This document shows, piece after piece, positions 49,108 through 55,693 of a stretch of 64,000 nt of DNA (positions within the stretch are counted from its first letter, which is position 1; each line of letters begins with the position of its first letter). The position numbers and the translations under genes are program-made. The notes beneath the pieces are model-generated. The model ran no database searches, was not told where the DNA came from, and saw only the letters and a list, made by a program, of their open reading frames with translations. The DNA is from Nitrosospira sp. 56-18 (GTDB lineage Bacteria; Pseudomonadota; Gammaproteobacteria; Burkholderiales; Nitrosomonadaceae): contig MKVR01000052.1 of assembly GCA_001899235.1 (NCBI GenBank), positions 98,944 to 162,943 of the forward strand, in the 5' to 3' direction.

Positions 49108-50460
49108 CTACATCTGCAACTGGAAGGAAAATTTGAAAACATCCGCTTTTCCACCAGCCGCATCGGGCGAATAGTCCGCGCCCTTGGTGCGAAGATCGCC
49201 ATGCTGATAATAGGCCGCTATTCGCGCATTGAAGCCATCGATGACATAATTCACGCCCCCCTCGATTTCCTCCCGTTTGCTGCTATGGTCGGGTTGAATA
49301 CTGGTGTATCTTCCATAGGGCTGGAGTTTGCCGATACCTATCATGACAGGAACCAGATAAAGACCGGTAACTGTCCATGATTTTCCATCGAATATGCAAA
49401 AGCAATCCGGGTCGGCGAAAGCCAGGGGAGAATAATTGGCATAAAATTGCTTATACTCCGCGTTGATCGTTGCCACGCCCATGTTTTTGGGCAGGATTTT
49501 TTCAAGCACCGCATCCCCTACGAGGCCCAGGAAATCGCTGCGGTGCGCGAATGAACCCGCGCCCTCTTTCTGGTACGAAGCGCCGACCGCCAGTGCAAGG
49601 ATATCGCCGGCGTTGCCAAAATAAGTGCCGCGAGTGTAATAGCCCGGATTTTTTTCCGGGTTCCAGAAATTATAAGTGAGGCGCCCTGCCCACGATATGC
49701 TGTTTCCCTGGTTTGGCCCCTTCTGCATGGGAGTGGATGACTGCAATCCCCTGTATATGCCTCCTGCATAACCGAGCGTGCCCCTCACGAAACCAGGCTC
49801 GATACTGCCCCAAAAAGTGACGCCATCGTCATGTCCGTAGCGGCCGGCGCCGCCACTGCCAAATTTGGTGCTGAAATCCTGCGGAAAAAATGGCGTCTTG
49901 AAGGCATCGTGGGTGGACTGGTGGAATGGACCGCTCAGTTCACCGCGTTCCGTGGGTATCTGCATGCGCCCGCCCCAGATATTGATGAAACGGTTGATCT
50001 CGACCTTGCCTATCGCGGCCAGGATGTTATAGGACATCCTGGGATTGTCGTTCGGATGAGTGTTATTGCAAAAAATACAGTCGGTATAGCTTTCGAATTT
50101 GATGTATCTATGGATCTGTCCATTGAGAAAGACGCGGGCATTGTCGATCCGGAAGGTATCATGAAAATTGCCGGTTTCCGGGTTTTCCGCCCATACGCCC
50201 GAGCCGCGGAAACCGGCGCCGAGCGTAAACCACCTGGTCTCATCGATAGCCCACCGGGGTTTGGTATTCGCATGCCCCAGGCCGTTCAGCGCATGGACTT
50301 CGGAAGCAGTAGCCAATATCCCCGTGACCAGGCTAGCCAGTATCAAAGCGCGGACGGGGGACCAGTTTTTTTCCTTGCCCATGCCAGGCCGCCGTATTGA
50401 CGAATCTGCTGATCTCCTGTGCTCTTTCATCGGTTTTCGCAACGATCTTCTGTCAGTCAT
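49108..50460 (-). CDS. Outer-membrane porin, FmdC (short-chain amide/urea porin)-like
   Basis: Amphipathic beta-strands, AGRLTYNFW.PE.NPGYY, C-terminal FSFQLQM; resemblance to FmdC-type porins from memory; start uncertain. Confidence 0.6.
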   Translation of the reverse strand: MTDRRSLRKPMKEHRRSADSSIRRPGMGKEKNWSPVRALILASLVTGILATASEVHALNGLGHANTKPRWAIDETRWFTLGAGFRGSGVWAENPETGNFHDTFRIDNARVFLNGQIHRYIKFESYTDCIFCNNTHPNDNPRMSYNILAAIGKVEINRFINIWGGRMQIPTERGELSGPFHQSTHDAFKTPFFPQDFSTKFGSGGAGRYGHDDGVTFWGSIEPGFVRGTLGYAGGIYRGLQSSTPMQKGPNQGNSISWAGRLTYNFWNPEKNPGYYTRGTYFGNAGDILALAVGASYQKEGAGSFAHRSDFLGLVGDAVLEKILPKNMGVATINAEYKQFYANYSPLAFADPDCFCIFDGKSWTVTGLYLVPVMIGIGKLQPYGRYTSIQPDHSSKREEIEGGVNYVIDGFNARIAAYYQHGDLRTKGADYSPDAAGGKADVFKFSFQLQM

Positions 50461-50612: not shown

Positions 50613-51284
50613 TTATTTCGCGATCGGATTCTGTTGCAGGGAAAATGAACCGAAATAGGGAGCGCCAGCGGAAGGAAATCGCCCAGCCCGCCCCGGCGCG
50701 CAGAGCTTATTGAGTAGCGCGATGGCGGAAATCCGTTTTTCCTCACGGCCTTTTCTCGCCTGATCATGTATTTCGCCGACTATCAGGATATCTCCCCGAA
50801 TATCCGCCTTGACGGTATACGCATCGAAACTGAAATCGCTGCCGAAATCCATCCATTCGACAGGGATGCTGAATTCTCCCCCGTGCAATATATGTTTGGC
50901 GCTGAAACCTGGATGCAGTCCTTCTTCGCCGGCTTTGTTGAATGTTTGCGGCAATCTCTGGCCCTCTGGCTGGAGCAGCCCCTCATAGATCAGGCCATTT
51001 CCCTTCGACCGGTTTATCGGGATAAGGAGAATATGCGCGCGTTCTCCGGATATCTGCAGAAGCAGATAATCGCCGTCGTCCCTGCCTATCCGTTCTCCCC
51101 TGGTCTTGACCTGGAATACCACCTGACCATCCCCGGAAATGGCGGTGGTCACGCGCAGAATATCGAGTTCCGGAAGCAGGGCTTTATCCATGGACGATAT
51201 GATGGTCCGCGGATCGGCATCGATCTGCATGGCCCATGAACTCCCGGCAGCAATCAGGAACAGCAGTGCCGGCGCCCATCTCAT
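50613..51284 (-). CDS. Hypothetical secreted protein
   Basis: Signal peptide ending SWA; ATGA overlap with the SCO gene. Confidence 0.7.
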   Translation of the reverse strand: MRWAPALLFLIAAGSSWAMQIDADPRTIISSMDKALLPELDILRVTTAISGDGQVVFQVKTRGERIGRDDGDYLLLQISGERAHILLIPINRSKGNGLIYEGLLQPEGQRLPQTFNKAGEEGLHPGFSAKHILHGGEFSIPVEWMDFGSDFSFDAYTVKADIRGDILIVGEIHDQARKGREEKRISAIALLNKLCAPGRAGRFPSAGAPYFGSFSLQQNPIAK

Positions 51285-51871
51285 GATTTGAACAAGCTCC
51301 TGTTTTCCTTCATCATCCTGGTGATGCTCTGCGCATCCTGCAATACATCGAATATCACCCGCATTTTCCCTTCCGGGTCGATCAGGAATGCCGAAGTGCT
51401 GTGGTCAACCTGGTAATGAAGGTGGTTGCCGGCATTCTTCGTATAGAAAATAGCCTCCACGCCGAACGCGGCCTTGAAGCGCTCCAGCGCCTCGCCTTCG
51501 AAGCGAAGATAGCCAATGTCGGGGCCGAAGCTTTTCGTGTATCTGGACAAGATGGCATCGGTATCCCTGTCCGGATCCACGGTGACGAATATCCCATTCA
51601 GATTGATTCGCTCAGCCGCGGCGGCGTTGACCAGCATCGCCGTATTGGCAAGTGACATGGGGCATACATCCTTGCAGTGCGTGAATCCAAAAACCAGCAG
51701 TTGCCATTGATTGCCATCGCCCGCGCGCACCTGCTTCAAATGCGCCATCGTTTCAGCCCGCAAGGCCACCGGACGCTGCAAGACAACCGGTGCCGCCATG
51801 ATTTCGGCGAAGAAAAAGACAGATAGCATGACAGCGGCGTGAAAAAGGCAACGCATCGTTCCATGTTTCAT
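51281..51871 (-). CDS. SCO1/SenC family copper chaperone
   Basis: FGFTHCKDVCP (CxxxC), FVTVDPDRDT, VDHST. Confidence 0.92.
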   Translation of the reverse strand: MKHGTMRCLFHAAVMLSVFFFAEIMAAPVVLQRPVALRAETMAHLKQVRAGDGNQWQLLVFGFTHCKDVCPMSLANTAMLVNAAAAERINLNGIFVTVDPDRDTDAILSRYTKSFGPDIGYLRFEGEALERFKAAFGVEAIFYTKNAGNHLHYQVDHSTSAFLIDPEGKMRVIFDVLQDAQSITRMMKENRSLFKS

Positions 51872-52005
51872 TTTTGAAGTCCTTTGTGACCCTTTCTATT
51901 GAATGGAATGTCCGGATTGGTGCCGTCCGAGCCGGCCCATCCCCGCCGCGGCGGGATTTAACCGCGGAGGAAAAACGGATGAGCCGGATGAAGATAAGGC
52001 GAGAA

Positions 52006-53337
52006 TCAGCGAAGGCTGCCCGCGCTGAATATGCCATGCGGCTTCACAAGGCCGTCGCTCGGTCCCCACACCTTGGTGACGGTATCGGTCGCGGTATCGA
52101 TTTTCAGCACATATCCGGAAACCCAGCTTGCCACCATCAGGTAGCGGTTATCCGGAGTCGGGCTGATCGTGTGCGCGACGGTATAGCCGTTCGGCAATCC
52201 GGACCCCGGCTTGAGCCTCTTTATGAATCTGGGGTTGGCGCGATCGGTCAGATCAAATATCGATATGTAACCGTCATTTGCGAACGTGTAGTCCAGCGTA
52301 TCCTCTTCTGCGATATAGAGCTTGCCGTTCACCACGGCAATATCCGATGCCGAGCGGAATACTCCGTTGTCGTTTGCGCTATAGGCGGTCTCGACGATTT
52401 TCTTCGCGGTTCCTTCCAGCGTATCGAGCAGCCAGACGCTGGGCGGAATGATGGAACTGGTGCTCGATGGCGTAAGGGAAGTCTTGTCGAATTGCATCGA
52501 GGCGGTTACCGCATAGCGCTCGTCCAGCCAGTACACGAAATGGGTGAATGCCGCATGCTTCTTCTCATCTCCCAGCATGATCCGGCCGACGGCGTGCAGC
52601 TCTCCGGTTTCCCTGTTGGACCGGTAGACGTCGATCACGCTGTTGTCAAAAAAATAACCCGTGCCCAGACCAACGGTGCCGGACTTGTTGAAATTGACGC
52701 CGTGCGTCTGCTCCGTATATCCCGGTATGACGATAGGATCCACGCTCGCGAGCTGATTCGTTTTATGATTGATCACGCGCACCCTGTCCGATGTGAACTC
52801 GGTGAAATAGAGAAAATCCGAGTATGGCAACAACGTGGGGCCATGTATCTGGGTGCCTCGCCCAATCAGCCAGTTGGGAACCGCCTGGTTACGGTTGGTA
52901 GGCTGGACGAAAGGCAATTCGCCGGGTTTGTTGGGGGTGTCCGCCGCTATCAACGAATCCAGCGACAGTGAAGCCGTTCCCGCATCCCAGTTGATATTGT
53001 CGACATTCAGGGCGATGATGTACGATGGATGATCCTGGGTATTGTCCGACGTGATGTATATCCTGTTTCCCTCTGGCATGACCACCGTATGCTGCAGCGG
53101 AACGTCCCCCGGCCAGCCGTGGATGCTGGCTGGATCCACGATGATCAATTTGTCCCGCTCGTAGTTGAACAGATAGATCATGGCGGTGTGGTAATCGATG
53201 GCGGTGGCTATGGGTTGAATATAGTTGTTGTAAACAGTCGGATAATCATAAAGCGGCAGTGGCGGCTGGGCATTTGCGCCGCCCGCGCCGGTGGATAGCG
53301 CCAGGATGCATGCTGCAACCAGTTGAAGCATTCGCAA
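52006..53337 (-). CDS. Secreted beta-propeller protein with His-bearing blades
   Basis: Signal peptide ending ANA; repeated blade motifs QHT/IHG/THG/THF/AHT/PHG followed by xP(D/E)G-type turns and YVTN-like strands. Confidence 0.8.
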   Translation of the reverse strand: MRMLQLVAACILALSTGAGGANAQPPLPLYDYPTVYNNYIQPIATAIDYHTAMIYLFNYERDKLIIVDPASIHGWPGDVPLQHTVVMPEGNRIYITSDNTQDHPSYIIALNVDNINWDAGTASLSLDSLIAADTPNKPGELPFVQPTNRNQAVPNWLIGRGTQIHGPTLLPYSDFLYFTEFTSDRVRVINHKTNQLASVDPIVIPGYTEQTHGVNFNKSGTVGLGTGYFFDNSVIDVYRSNRETGELHAVGRIMLGDEKKHAAFTHFVYWLDERYAVTASMQFDKTSLTPSSTSSIIPPSVWLLDTLEGTAKKIVETAYSANDNGVFRSASDIAVVNGKLYIAEEDTLDYTFANDGYISIFDLTDRANPRFIKRLKPGSGLPNGYTVAHTISPTPDNRYLMVASWVSGYVLKIDTATDTVTKVWGPSDGLVKPHGIFSAGSLR

Positions 53338-53591
53338 TATTCTTTAAATCGAAAACATATGAATCCCCTGAAAAATTGAAAATAAAAAGTATTGATGGTG
53401 TTATGGATGCATTAATGACAACTGCTTGAAAGAACCCGCCATGGGCGGCTTCCTGACGGGAACCGCGCCATGCTGGCTTCTGTTCGCTAACGAACCCTTT
53501 TCAACCCGGATCATGTTCCTGCCGCAGCCGATTTGCGTTTTCGATGCCTCGCTTTCGGCCTGACGCGGACAGGACCTGGTGGATGCAATGA

Positions 53592-54023: not shown

Positions 54024-54585
54024 GGGATTTTCCTCTCTATAAAAAAACAGCATGCATCGAATTACCAGGCGCACCCGGCAAATAAATCTATTTGTCATAT
54101 AATAGACCTAACAGGCACCGAATACGGTTTTTTCAGGCGTCGTCATGAAGGTTCCGGCAATACGGATCCCTATGCCAGGACCGAGCCTGGCGGAGACGGA
54201 AAGCTTCGCCTTATCCGTTTTTTAAGCTATTGTTTTTATTTCGAAACGTGGCGTTTCGTCGAGGTCGACAGATTTCAGGATAAAACCTGCCTGGTGGGGG
54301 TTCTCTATGCAAAAGAGATTTTTGTGCGGATTTGGCGTCGAACTCCGGTTCATGCCATCCAAATCATCAGAACACATGACAAGCATCGCATACTCATGTT
54401 ACATGCATATGAAATCACGCTCTTCCAATTAAAACATGTTTTAACGCCAGCCGGATTATTCCATGGCGCGATGTGAATGCAATTCGATTGCTCCTGCATG
54501 TTCAAAGGTATTCTCTGAATCATTGAACCGGGCATGGAACGCTGTCGAGCCGGGACTATGACAAAAATATATCGATGGCGCTGGT

Positions 54586-54615
54586 GGTGATGGTGATGGT
54601 GATGGTGATGGTGAT
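54586..54615. repeat. (GGTGAT)5 microsatellite
   Basis: Five perfect hexamer units. Confidence 0.9.
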
Positions 54616-54781
54616 TGCGGGGAATGCCTGAATCCGCATGCCCTGCCGGAACAATGCCAGGCGGCCCGCGCTTGATCATCCGTGCGATAACGGGCAATGT
54701 TGCGTTTCTGGATGCGCTTTCCGCTTACGGAAAGCGGGACATGCAGGGGCACGGATAAATGAACGGAAAAAGGGAAATGCC

Positions 54782-55693
54782 ATGAATACAGGAATATCGC
54801 GAATTCCACTTATTCTCATTCTCCTGCTGCTCGGCGGCTTACCCGCCCAGGCCTCCCAGCCCGCGCCTATTCCCGCTTCCGCGCCGGCGCCTGCGCCGGC
54901 ACCCCTGCAGGATGGCGGGAATATCGAATTCATGGACAACAGCCAGATCGTGAAGGTACTGTCGCTCGGCTACCTGGAGGCTATCGCGCCACCCCTCTCG
55001 TTGCAGGTCTTCGAACCGCACGAAGGCAGGAAACGTGTTTACCGGGTGCTTCCGGCCCGATCTGTATTCGATGCGGTTTTCGGGAACAAGTGGAAAGAAG
55101 CGAAGGAAATCGTATTCCTGTCCAGCGACGGATACCGGGCTACCGTCCCCGTGGCAAAGTTTGCCGGGCACGAAGCCTTCCTGGCTTTCGCGCATGACGA
55201 TGGCAGGCCCTTCATGATGGTCAATACGCTGCAAAACAACGAGCTGGTACAACTGGGGCCGCTTTACCTGGTATGGGACAACGTGAATTCGGAAGCGCTG
55301 CTCGAATCCGGCGCGTCGGACATGCCCTACCAGATCAGGGCTGTCGAGCTCAAATCCGGTGATTCCTTCCCGAAAATGACCCCGCCTCAGGATGCATCCT
55401 CACAGGCGCGACGCGGGTTCGTCCATTTCCGGAAATACTGTGCGTCATGCCACGCCATCAATGGCGAGGGCGGAACCAAAGGGCCGGAACTCAATTTTCC
55501 GGTCAGCGTGACAGAGTATATCCAGTCTGGCTACCTGAAGCGCTGGATCGAGAATCCGCAGAGCATCCGGTACAATACGACGATGCCGGGTCTGGGCAAG
55601 GAAATACCCCGGCGCGAACAGGTCATCGAGGAGCTCATCGCTTATCTCGAGGCCATGAGTATTGCCAAACACGACCCTGCAGGCGTACCCTGA
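54782..55693 (+). CDS. Periplasmic class I cytochrome c fused to an N-terminal molybdopterin-oxidoreductase-like domain
   Basis: Signal peptide, PA linker, FLSSDGYRATVP..GPLYLVW, then CASCH and a distal TTMP. Confidence 0.75.
   Translation: MNTGISRIPLILILLLLGGLPAQASQPAPIPASAPAPAPAPLQDGGNIEFMDNSQIVKVLSLGYLEAIAPPLSLQVFEPHEGRKRVYRVLPARSVFDAVFGNKWKEAKEIVFLSSDGYRATVPVAKFAGHEAFLAFAHDDGRPFMMVNTLQNNELVQLGPLYLVWDNVNSEALLESGASDMPYQIRAVELKSGDSFPKMTPPQDASSQARRGFVHFRKYCASCHAINGEGGTKGPELNFPVSVTEYIQSGYLKRWIENPQSIRYNTTMPGLGKEIPRREQVIEELIAYLEAMSIAKHDPAGVP

What the first reader, a model, noticed from the sequence alone, without database searches (positions are those of the whole stretch)
50613..53337. Candidate new periplasmic copper-enzyme system: His-lined beta-propeller + SCO chaperone + secreted partner
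Seen: a 443-aa Sec-exported protein whose blades start with PLQHTVVMPEG, TQIHGPTLLPYS, EQTHGVNFNKSG, AFTHFVYWLDE, (RSASDIAVVNG), TVAHTISPTPDN and C-terminal VKPHGIFSAG. Six of seven putative blades carry His at the equivalent position. Downstream on the same strand are an intact SCO (CxxxC + His) and an ATGA-coupled secreted unknown. Established: NosZ binds CuZ through His residues from its seven-bladed propeller, and the Cu-dependent methanethiol oxidase MtoX is a propeller encoded with SCO1/SenC. This protein has no CuA domain and no MauG gene is present. Inference: a distinct multi-His (probably multi-copper) propeller oxidoreductase with a dedicated Cu loader, possibly acting on N or S compounds. 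Nearby cytochrome c (54782) and porin (49108) genes could be partners.
Basis: partly seen in the sequence, partly recalled or inferred. Interest (0 to 1): 0.82.

Follow-up and report, generated by a model that had tools for sequence, protein, structure and literature searches.

The report
Uncharacterised histidine-ring propeller with copper chaperone
This Nitrosospira window carries a three-gene operon for an exported seven-bladed propeller protein with six never-changing histidines, a Sco1 copper chaperone and a dedicated unknown partner; it is probably an undescribed periplasmic copper enzyme, and its relatives in other bacteria sit inside hydroxylamine-producing gene clusters.

Summary
Three co-directional minus-strand genes encode a 443-aa exported propeller (52006-53337), an intact Sco1/SenC (51281-51871) and a 223-aa exported unknown (50613-51284, ATGA overlap).

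- **Histidine ring:** The protein's other six histidines are not conserved. In a confident AlphaFold model each lies at the start of the innermost strand of one blade. The seventh blade supplies Ser331-Asp332.
- **Family:** small orphan family with no Pfam model, not NosZ and not SBP56/MtoX. The closest analogue is tri-copper thiocyanate dehydrogenase.
- **Partners:** propeller-Sco1-unknown is conserved in Nitrosospira, Nitrosomonas, Nitrosococcus and Myxococcota. The unknown never occurs without the propeller.
- **Distribution:** accessory, not core (16/28 Nitrosospira, 35/91 Nitrosomonas species).
- **Function clue:** in Motilimonas, Shewanella, Aestuariibacter and cyanobacteria the propeller lies within or beside dnfABC hydroxylamine-forming clusters. 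This points to hydroxylamine or a derived N-oxide as substrate.

Copper binding and activity remain untested. The nearby cytochrome c is not a conserved partner. The porin is linked only in Nitrosospira.

The parts
52006..53337 (-). Exported seven-bladed beta-propeller, 443 aa as listed. Ring residues: H83 (53091-53089), H165 (52845-52843), H212 (52704-52702), H266 (52542-52540), S331-D332 (52347-52342), H389 (52173-52171), H434 (52038-52036). Also invariant: the A343-E-E-D346 motif and the C-terminal R443.
   Evidence: ORF. Only hits are a YVTN repeat (NCBIfam) and YncE in PDB (E 3e-4); no Pfam family. AF2 pLDDT 88.7 with 7 blades. His invariance. Foldseek finds generic propellers, with best TMq 0.57-0.58 to Dtox_1751 and thiocyanate dehydrogenase.
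53338..53369 (-). Ancestral translation start region: Shine-Dalgarno AGGGGA (53369-53364), ATG (53358-53356), then TAA at codon 5 (53346-53344), where a close relative has AAA (Lys).
   Evidence: Sequence. DNA alignment with a 98%-identical Nitrosospira MAG locus, L096. Relatives start MFSIKRILRM.
51872..52005 (-). 134-nt spacer between the propeller and Sco1 genes, containing a GC-rich inverted repeat (CCGCGG...CCGCGGCGGGG). It may act as a partial attenuator.
   Evidence: Sequence. The terminator scan did not call it, so this role is inference only.
51281..51871 (-). Sco1/SenC periplasmic copper chaperone, 196 aa, with signal/anchor, C66-K-D-V-C70 and His157 (VDHST).
   Evidence: PF02630, E 1.6e-29, 103 bits. 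Motifs read from the translation. Adjacent to the propeller in nearly all AOB and Myxococcota loci.
50613..51284 (-). Dedicated 223-aa exported partner, ATGA-coupled to Sco1. It is a beta-sandwich plus a C-terminal helix. Invariant residues are Met19 (predicted first residue after signal cleavage), P25, R26, D41, T157, D174, N192 and C195.
   Evidence: No Pfam or NCBIfam hit. Alignment A2. AF2 pLDDT 81. No PDB fold match (best E 0.02, TM <= 0.34). Present in 36 of 121 family genomes, all of them propeller-positive, and in 0 of 82 propeller-negative genomes.
49108..50460 (-). Porin-like outer-membrane protein, 450 aa, immediately downstream. A lineage-specific fourth gene.
   Evidence: Weak ExtI-porin match, 38 bits, below cut-off. 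Homologue adjacent to the operon only in Nitrosospira loci L008, L012, L015, L022, L023 and L051, in varying positions.

Best explanation
The three genes form an operon for a periplasmic metallo-enzyme of an undescribed family.

**Shown**
- The propeller is Sec-exported and folds into seven blades.
- Six invariant histidines, plus Ser331 and usually Asp332, lie at the starts of the innermost strands, one per blade.
- The Sco1 gene and the 223-aa partner are conserved alongside it, and the partner never occurs without the propeller.

**Inferred**
- The histidines line one mouth of the central tunnel and hold a multinuclear copper centre of two or three Cu, as in thiocyanate dehydrogenase, NosZ CuZ or MtoX.
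- Copper is inserted in the periplasm by the thiol-based Sco1 chaperone.
- The 223-aa beta-sandwich (mature N-terminal Met, single invariant Cys) acts as a second assembly or copper-transfer factor, or as a subunit.
- Asp332 co-varies with the C-terminal Arg443, so it probably pairs with that residue near the centre rather than binding metal.

**Most likely substrate (inference from gene context)**
Hydroxylamine, or an N-oxide directly derived from it (NO or HNO). Ammonia oxidisers generate it in the periplasm, and dnfABC heterotrophs and cyanobacteria release it. Electrons would pass to soluble periplasmic cytochromes c or to O2. The module is accessory: a detoxifying or electron-salvaging side route, not the core pathway.
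For: - **Operon and signal peptides:**
- **Sco1:** PF02630 with intact CxxxC and His.
- **His ring:** invariant across the whole family, down to 22% identity.
- **Fold:** confident 7-blade model with each His at an inner-strand start. Fold similarity to tri-copper TcDH (E 1.3e-8, TMq 0.58) and to SBP56. TcDH carries three Cu in the central tunnel of a 7-bladed propeller (PMC9456337).
- **Precedent:** the Cu-dependent MtoX propeller is encoded with SCO1/senC (PMC5739008).
- **Synteny:** propeller-Sco1-partner in about 55 AOB, Myxococcota and other loci with differing flanks.
- **Partner:** strictly nested within propeller-positive genomes.
- **D332/R443 covariation:**
- **N-compound context:**
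  - Propeller between dnfB and dnfC, with divergent dnfA, MarR, DUF2024, MOSC and Hmp, in Motilimonas (two species), Shewanella salipaludis and Aestuariibacter.
  - Propeller-AurF-GATase in two cyanobacteria.
  - P460-AurF-GATase-reductase-propeller-Sco1-partner in L007.
  - A NirBD fusion next door in L074.
  - DnfABC produces hydroxylamine from glutamine (PMC11440038). The Motilimonas and Shewanella clusters are recognised as dnfA*BC group IV (PMC13753816).
Against: - No metal has been measured, and copper rests on Sco1 linkage and analogy.
- The dnf-linked clade lacks Sco1 and the partner nearby.
- Foldseek similarity to TcDH is no better than to metal-free propellers. No sequence homology to TcDH, NosZ or SBP56 is detectable.
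- No electron-transfer gene sits in the AOB operon.
- The gene is absent from 43-62% of high-quality Nitrosospira and Nitrosomonas species genomes, and Alcaligenes-type dnf clusters work without it.
- Some contexts (a Planctomycete-like contig, phages) say nothing about nitrogen.
- In this genome the ancestral start is disrupted by TAA at codon 5.
Confidence: 0.55

Rival explanations
1. A sulfur-compound oxidoreductase of the MtoX or TcDH type. The copper propeller would oxidise methanethiol, thiocyanate, sulfide or a related S compound, and the nitrogen context would be incidental.
For: - Several UniRef entries for family members are auto-named 'Methanethiol oxidase'.
- The arrangement with SCO1 mirrors mtoX-SCO1-mauG (PMC5739008).
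- Foldseek hits include TcDH and SBP56.
- Phage copies travel with a di-haem DHOR gene, reminiscent of MauG.
- dnfC is fused to a peroxiredoxin in Motilimonas and Shewanella.
Against: - No PF05694 match for the window protein, for two members that UniRef names methanethiol oxidase, or anywhere in the genome.
- hhalign to SBP56 gives 38.7% over only 98 columns.
- No sulfur-oxidation genes lie in any neighbourhood examined.
- The recurrent neighbours are N-oxide and hydroxylamine genes.
- Enrichment is in ammonia oxidisers.
Confidence: 0.12
2. A copper-handling protein rather than a substrate-turning enzyme. It would act as a periplasmic copper store, buffer or cuprous oxidase, supplying or protecting the copper-rich machinery of ammonia oxidisers, with Sco1 and the partner as its loading system.
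For: - Sco1 linkage.
- A porin gene adjacent in Nitrosospira.
- Ammonia oxidisers have a high copper demand (established knowledge).
- The operon is accessory.
Against: - Invariant non-ligand residues typical of catalysis are kept to 22% identity: E344 and S331, with E345 invariant across the 42-sequence set.
- The gene sits inside dnfBC operons of heterotrophs without Sco1.
- It is carried by phages as an exported protein with all ring residues retained.
Confidence: 0.1
3. A propeller that binds a metal other than copper, or none. It would be a hydrolase, lactonase or ligand-binding protein of the YncE or lactonase kind that uses Zn, Fe or Ca, or merely binds a periplasmic ligand.
For: - NCBI and JGI name members 'YncE family'.
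- The only sequence-level matches are a YVTN repeat, YncE structures and weak Lactonase hits.
- Top Foldseek hits include 6-phosphogluconolactonases.
- Sco1 is absent from the dnf-linked clade.
Against: - The matches cover only one or two blades and are generic.
- A ring of six invariant His, one per blade, fits the multi-copper propeller enzymes better (own knowledge; not checked against those families here).
- Sco1 is a copper-specific chaperone and is co-inherited in the whole AOB/Myxococcota clade.
Confidence: 0.1
4. A CuA-less nitrous-oxide reductase analogue. The His ring would hold a CuZ-like cluster that reduces N2O to N2, which would explain reports of N2 from dirammox organisms and from Nitrosomonas lacking nosZ.
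For: - Same fold class and same ligand logic as the NosZ propeller (own knowledge).
- The genome has no nos_propeller match.
- Association with dnf clusters, whose reported end product is N2 (PMC9478400, PMC13753816).
- Cytochrome P460 (NH2OH to N2O) lies upstream in L007.
Against: - hhalign to NosZ gives 1.6%.
- Six rather than seven His.
- No NosDFY or NosL genes were noted in any neighbourhood examined, although they were not searched for specifically.
- Sec export rather than Tat export.
- No electron-input domain.
- Alcaligenes dirammox proceeds without this gene.
Confidence: 0.04

Closest known systems
Thiocyanate dehydrogenase (TcDH, PDB 5F75/6SJI)
   Same: Periplasmic seven-bladed beta-propeller with a metal centre built from histidines in the central tunnel (three Cu; PMC9456337). 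Encoded beside copper-handling genes (PMC6504805). Among the best Foldseek matches (E 1.3e-8, TMq 0.57-0.58). Electrons leave to a soluble cytochrome c.
   Different: No detectable sequence similarity. TcDH is Tat-exported and linked to CopCD or Cus, not Sco1 (PMC6504805). This protein is Sec-exported with Sco1 plus a novel partner. Residue-by-residue equivalence of the ligands could not be tested. Gene context points to N compounds, not thiocyanate.
Methanethiol oxidase MtoX (SBP56 family) with SCO1/SenC and MauG
   Same: Copper-dependent periplasmic propeller enzyme encoded in an operon with a SCO1/SenC chaperone, with conserved histidines proposed as Cu ligands (PMC5739008). Phage copies of the present family travel with a di-haem DHOR gene, loosely recalling MauG.
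   Different: No PF05694 match. Profile-profile probability is 38.7% over two blades only. There are six ring His instead of four. The AOB operons have no MauG, and the third gene is an unrelated novel beta-sandwich.
Nitrous-oxide reductase NosZ (CuZ propeller)
   Same: Seven-bladed propeller whose blades each donate histidines to a multinuclear copper centre (own knowledge). An N-cycle enzyme.
   Different: No CuA domain, no nos_propeller match in the protein or the genome, hhalign 1.6%, Sec rather than Tat export, and no nosDFYL genes noted in the neighbourhoods examined.
dnfABC (dirammox) hydroxylamine-forming clusters
   Same: In Motilimonas, Shewanella, Aestuariibacter, two cyanobacteria and L007, the propeller gene lies within or directly beside dnfA (AurF), dnfB (reductase) and dnfC (GATase). 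Motilimonas and Shewanella are listed as dnfA*BC group IV (PMC13753816).
   Different: The propeller is not one of the defined Dnf proteins. It is absent from Alcaligenes-type clusters and is not mentioned in the dirammox papers read here. The Nitrosospira window has no dnf genes nearby.

Membership tests
NosZ (nitrous-oxide reductase) | N-terminal propeller matching Pfam nos_propeller (PF18764) | tested here: not met
   No Pfam hit for the protein. Whole-genome search of G000 with PF18764 gave 0 matches, while 5 other genomes of the class matched. hhalign of A4 against a 4-sequence NosZ alignment gave probability 1.6%.
NosZ (nitrous-oxide reductase) | C-terminal cupredoxin CuA domain and Tat signal | tested here: not met
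   The protein ends with the last propeller strand (R443). There is no COX2 or cupredoxin hit. The signal peptide (MFSIKRILRM.../MRMLQLV...) has no twin arginine.
SBP56 / MtoX methanethiol oxidase | Match to Pfam SBP56 (PF05694) | tested here: not met
   No hit even at E <= 10 for the window protein and for two members that UniRef names methanethiol oxidase. G000 had 0 matches, while 4 genomes of the class matched. hhalign gave 38.7% over 98 columns.
SBP56 / MtoX methanethiol oxidase | Operon with SCO1/SenC and MauG | tested here: inconclusive
   SCO1 linkage is met. No MauG-like gene is present in the window or in the AOB loci. A di-haem DHOR gene accompanies only the phage copies.
Thiocyanate dehydrogenase (TcDH) | Seven-bladed propeller fold similar to 5F75 | tested here: inconclusive
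   Foldseek E 1.3e-8, TMq 0.58, but metal-free propellers score similarly. No sequence match by phmmer or hmmsearch against PDB.
Thiocyanate dehydrogenase (TcDH) | Tri-copper centre ligated by six His and one Asp; thiocyanate oxidation | not testable with these tools
The PNAS structure paper is not held. D332 co-varies with R443, which argues against a simple Asp-ligand equivalence.
YncE / YVTN beta-propeller proteins | YVTN-type blade repeats | tested here: met
   TIGR02276 repeat at residues 395-422 (31.3 bits against a cut-off of 27.85). YncE structures match residues 307-420 at E 3e-4. This is a fold-level label only and says nothing about function.
Sco1/SenC copper chaperones (second gene) | PF02630 thioredoxin-like domain with CxxxC and a distal His | tested here: met
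   103 bits against a cut-off of 22.8. C66-K-D-V-C70 and H157 read from the translation.

The most novel reading that the evidence does not exclude
The propeller is a new class of nitrogen-cycle enzyme. It would be a periplasmic multi-copper hydroxylamine (or NO/HNO) oxidoreductase, shared by ammonia-oxidising bacteria, dnfABC-type heterotrophic and cyanobacterial hydroxylamine producers, and even phages. It would catalyse a step downstream of hydroxylamine that is currently attributed to unknown enzymes or to abiotic chemistry, for example NH2OH to N2, N2O or nitrite.
Probability: 0.27. Interest if true: 0.9.

Novelty: new variant of a known kind. Interest (0 to 1): 0.68.

Why it matters
What happens to hydroxylamine and NO is an open question in nitrification. 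It covers the missing step after HAO in bacteria, the unknown steps in archaea, the route from hydroxylamine to N2 in dirammox, and the sources of N2O.

This is a compact family with no Pfam model and no characterisation found in the literature searched here. It has the hallmarks of a multinuclear copper site, a dedicated chaperone pair, and two independent genomic links to hydroxylamine-producing metabolism. That gives a concrete and easily cloned candidate to test.

Because the module is accessory, it could also explain strain-to-strain differences in N2O or NO yield and in hydroxylamine tolerance among Nitrosospira and Nitrosomonas. The partner protein has no recognisable fold relative and may be a new kind of periplasmic metallochaperone.

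Tried and rejected
- **Core AOB enzyme (the 'missing NO oxidoreductase'): rejected.** Only 16/28 Nitrosospira, 35/91 Nitrosomonas and 4/7 Nitrosococcaceae species genomes have the gene.
- **Common archaeal enzyme: rejected.** 1 of 101 genomes of the Nitrososphaeraceae MAG's family, and that one is the MAG itself.
- **Cytochrome c at 54638-55693 as partner: rejected.** No homologue in any related locus.
- **Sequence link to NosZ, SBP56 or TcDH: not found**.
- **Distant homologues with known function: none.** A profile search of 1.84 billion representatives gives only 57 clusters at E <= 1e-30 and then generic YVTN repeats. Divergent members have no informative Pfam hit.
- **Fold relatives of the 223-aa partner: none**.
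- **IMG/VR scan for viral copies: no hits**, although four phage loci turned up by other routes.
- **TcDH structure paper: not held**.
- **Literature searches:** no paper found that characterises this family in nitrifiers. The SenC mentioned in AOB transcriptome papers is the sNOR-linked one.
- **Direct measurement of His-His distances: not possible.** Model coordinates are not exposed.
Full report
**1. What is in the sequence**

Between 50613 and 53337 the minus strand carries three consecutive ORFs.
- A 443-aa protein at 52006-53337.
- A 196-aa protein at 51281-51871.
- A 223-aa protein at 50613-51284, whose ATG overlaps the previous stop (ATGA).

The middle protein is a clear Sco1/SenC (PF02630, 103 bits). 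It has the copper-binding C66xxxC70 pair and His157. The other two have no Pfam or NCBIfam family. The only exception is a single YVTN blade repeat in the large protein. All three begin with Sec-type signal peptides and none has a twin-arginine motif.

A porin-like gene follows on the same strand at 49108-50460 (weak ExtI match).

Homologue names place the window in a Nitrosospira genome.

**2. The histidine ring is real**

I aligned 40, then 42, homologues spanning 37-79% identity. H83, H165, H212, H389 and H434 are invariant, and H266 is kept in 41 of 42. In a further set that includes the most divergent full-length members found anywhere (22-29% identity), all six are invariant, together with S331 and E344.

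The protein has twelve histidines. The other six are kept in only 1-20 of 42 sequences. The pattern is therefore selective, not compositional.

The AlphaFold2 model is confident (pLDDT 88.7, pTM 0.86) and shows seven four-stranded blades. The C-terminal strand (433-438) closes blade 1. Each conserved His lies at or just before the first residue of an innermost strand. The one blade without a His supplies the invariant S331 and D332.

I could not obtain coordinates, so convergence of the side chains at the tunnel mouth is inferred from topology and was not measured.

D332 and the very last residue, R443, change together (W/D, W/D and Y/H in three divergent members). This suggests an Asp-Arg pair near the centre rather than an Asp metal ligand.

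**3. What family it is not**

| Comparison | Result |
|---|---|
| HMMER against all PDB sequences | Only YncE-type blades (E 3e-4) |
| Foldseek against PDB | >1000 propellers at E <= 0.001, best ~1e-10; best query-normalised TM 0.57-0.58 to Dtox_1751 and tri-copper TcDH; SBP56 0.54; cd1 NirS, NirN/F and hydrazine synthase also listed |
| Whole-genome search, PF18764 (NosZ propeller) | Nothing in this genome |
| Whole-genome search, PF05694 (SBP56) | Nothing in this genome |
| Profile-profile against NosZ | 1.6% |
| Profile-profile against SBP56 | 38.7% over two blades |
| Profile search of 1.84 billion cluster representatives | 57 clusters at E <= 1e-30, many of them fragments, then generic YVTN repeats |

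The family is therefore small, distinct and unmodelled. I found no paper that characterises it.

**4. The partners**

Propeller-Sco1-partner is conserved, with unrelated flanking genes, in these groups:
- Nitrosospira and Nitrosovibrio
- Many Nitrosomonas, including N. europaea ATCC 25978, N. eutropha, N. halophila, N. marina, N. communis and N. mobilis
- Nitrosococcus
- Marine Myxococcota MAGs

Across 121 genomes of the family, the 223-aa partner is present in 36. All 36 lie among the 39 propeller-positive genomes, and none of the 82 propeller-negative genomes has it. It is a dedicated partner.

Its model is a beta-sandwich with a C-terminal helix (pLDDT 81) and has no structural relative in the PDB. 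Its invariant residues are the Met predicted to become the mature N-terminus, D41, D174, N192 and a single Cys195. That set is compatible with a Cu(I)-handling role but does not prove one.

The porin is linked only in Nitrosospira, in varying positions. The cytochrome c gene at 54638-55693 is never linked.

**5. Distribution**

The module is accessory.

| Group | Genomes with the propeller |
|---|---|
| Nitrosospira (high-quality species genomes) | 16 of 28, one with an internal stop |
| Nitrosomonas (high-quality species genomes) | 35 of 91 |
| Nitrosococcaceae | 4 of 7 |
| Family of the Nitrososphaeraceae MAG | 1 of 101 |

Some genomes have two copies. This contradicts an earlier scan note that it occurs in almost all ammonia oxidisers. 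It also rules it out as an indispensable step of ammonia oxidation.

In a midpoint-rooted tree, Nitrosococcus nests inside the Nitrosomonas sequences, which indicates lateral exchange among ammonia oxidisers.

**6. Clues to function from other lineages**

A second clade lacks Sco1 but sits in a strikingly consistent context.
- **Gammaproteobacteria.** In Motilimonas cestriensis and M. eburnea, Shewanella salipaludis and Aestuariibacter, the order is MarR, dnfA (AurF, divergent), dnfB (FNR/2Fe-2S reductase), propeller, dnfC (glutamine amidotransferase). DUF2024 is nearby in all four, MOSC/YiiM in at least three, and a flavohaemoglobin was confirmed in M. cestriensis.
- **Cyanobacteria.** In Okeania and a Microcoleaceae MAG, a 622-aa version precedes AurF and GATase.
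- **Contig L007.** This contig combines both worlds: cytochrome P460, AurF, GATase, rubredoxin-reductase, propeller, Sco1, partner.
- **Oceanospirillaceae MAG.** The neighbour is a NirB-NirD fusion.

DnfABC converts glutamine-derived nitrogen to hydroxylamine (PMC11440038). Motilimonas and Shewanella are listed as dnfA*BC 'group IV' in a 2026 survey that does not mention the intervening gene (PMC13753816).

The common chemical denominator with ammonia oxidisers is hydroxylamine and its immediate oxidation products. That is why I favour an N-compound substrate over a sulfur compound.

**7. Mechanism proposed, and its status**

*Shown*
- Export.
- The seven-blade fold.
- A ring of invariant His at inner-strand starts.
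- Conserved Sco1 and a dedicated partner.
- Recurrent hydroxylamine and N-oxide context.

*Inferred*
- The ring binds two or three copper ions at the tunnel mouth.
- Sco1, with the partner, loads them after Sec export.
- The enzyme oxidises or otherwise transforms hydroxylamine, NO or HNO, and hands electrons to soluble cytochromes or O2.
- It acts as an auxiliary detoxifying or electron-salvaging route.

Closest precedents are TcDH (PMC9456337, PMC6504805), MtoX with SCO1 (PMC5739008) and NosZ. The rivals are a sulfur-compound oxidase, a copper store or cuprous oxidase, a non-copper hydrolase or binder, and a CuA-less N2O reductase. None is excluded by computation alone, and they are scored in the rival list.

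**8. State of the gene in this genome**

The ancestral start (ATG 53358, preceded by AGGGGA) is followed by TAA at codon 5, where a 98%-identical Nitrosospira MAG has AAA. The rest of the frame is intact and can restart at TTG 53337 or ATG 53331.

I therefore cannot say whether this is a sequencing error, a recent inactivation, or a tolerated change of start.

**9. Verdict**

The metal and the activity are untested.

It is best filed as a new variant of the copper-propeller-plus-chaperone theme, with a credible and testable link to hydroxylamine metabolism.

Noticed in passing
window 53344-53358 (minus strand): The ancestral ATG start of the propeller gene is followed by an in-frame TAA at codon 5. 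A 98%-identical relative has AAA there. The ORF resumes 6 nt later at TTG 53337.
   Followed up: partly
L006:8001-9446, L071:5743-7239, L085/L086:7001-8461: Four loci are phage genomes (endolysin, head protein, DNA polymerase, tail assembly chaperone). They carry an exported propeller homologue with all ring residues and an N-terminal 'NHYDP...' extension. L006, L085 and L086 also encode a ~525-aa di-haem DHOR protein. No copy was found in IMG/VR.
   Followed up: partly
L072:4808-8479, L073, L080:5960-9643, L081:5972-9153: In Motilimonas, Shewanella salipaludis and Aestuariibacter the propeller gene lies between dnfB and dnfC of the dirammox-type cluster. The 2026 survey of dnfABC diversity does not mention this gene.
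   Followed up: yes
L072:9566-10306, L074:9545-10309, L076:8710-9531, L081:9569-10381, L082:11954-12712: A second unknown exported protein of ~250 aa accompanies the propeller in the Sco1-less clade, in both gammaproteobacteria and cyanobacteria. Its invariant motifs are HPDFDDTP and WHSHWVVL, and it has no Pfam family. It may be the counterpart of Sco1 and the partner.
   Followed up: partly
P0202 (849 aa) and L078:4630-7131: Two long versions carry extra sequence N-terminal to the propeller. P0202, an unnamed library representative, has a CHRD domain by Pfam. The Crocosphaera copy in L078 (833 aa) has a large insertion that looks CHRD-like by eye but was not scanned.
   Followed up: no
window residues D332 (52344-52342) and R443 (52011-52009): Asp332 and the C-terminal Arg443 co-vary in three divergent homologues (W/D, W/D, Y/H). 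This suggests a buried salt bridge at the propeller centre.
   Followed up: partly
L079:201-1649 (Nitrososphaeraceae MAG contig): A single MAG labelled Nitrososphaeraceae (ammonia-oxidising archaea) carries a 38%-identical homologue on a 4.8-kb contig. The neighbouring ORFs look archaeal by eye only and were not searched. None of 100 other genomes of that family has the gene.
   Followed up: partly
window 51950-51985 (minus strand): A GC-rich inverted repeat lies in the 134-nt spacer between the propeller and Sco1 genes.
   Followed up: no
window 54585-54615: A perfect hexanucleotide tandem repeat (TGGTGA x 5.2) lies upstream of the likely start of the cytochrome c gene. It produces His-runs or Ser-Pro runs in spurious antisense ORFs.
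   Followed up: no
G002:C31:7019-8227: In one same-genus genome the propeller homologue has an internal TAA and the partner gene is absent. This suggests decay of the module in some Nitrosospira.
   Followed up: no
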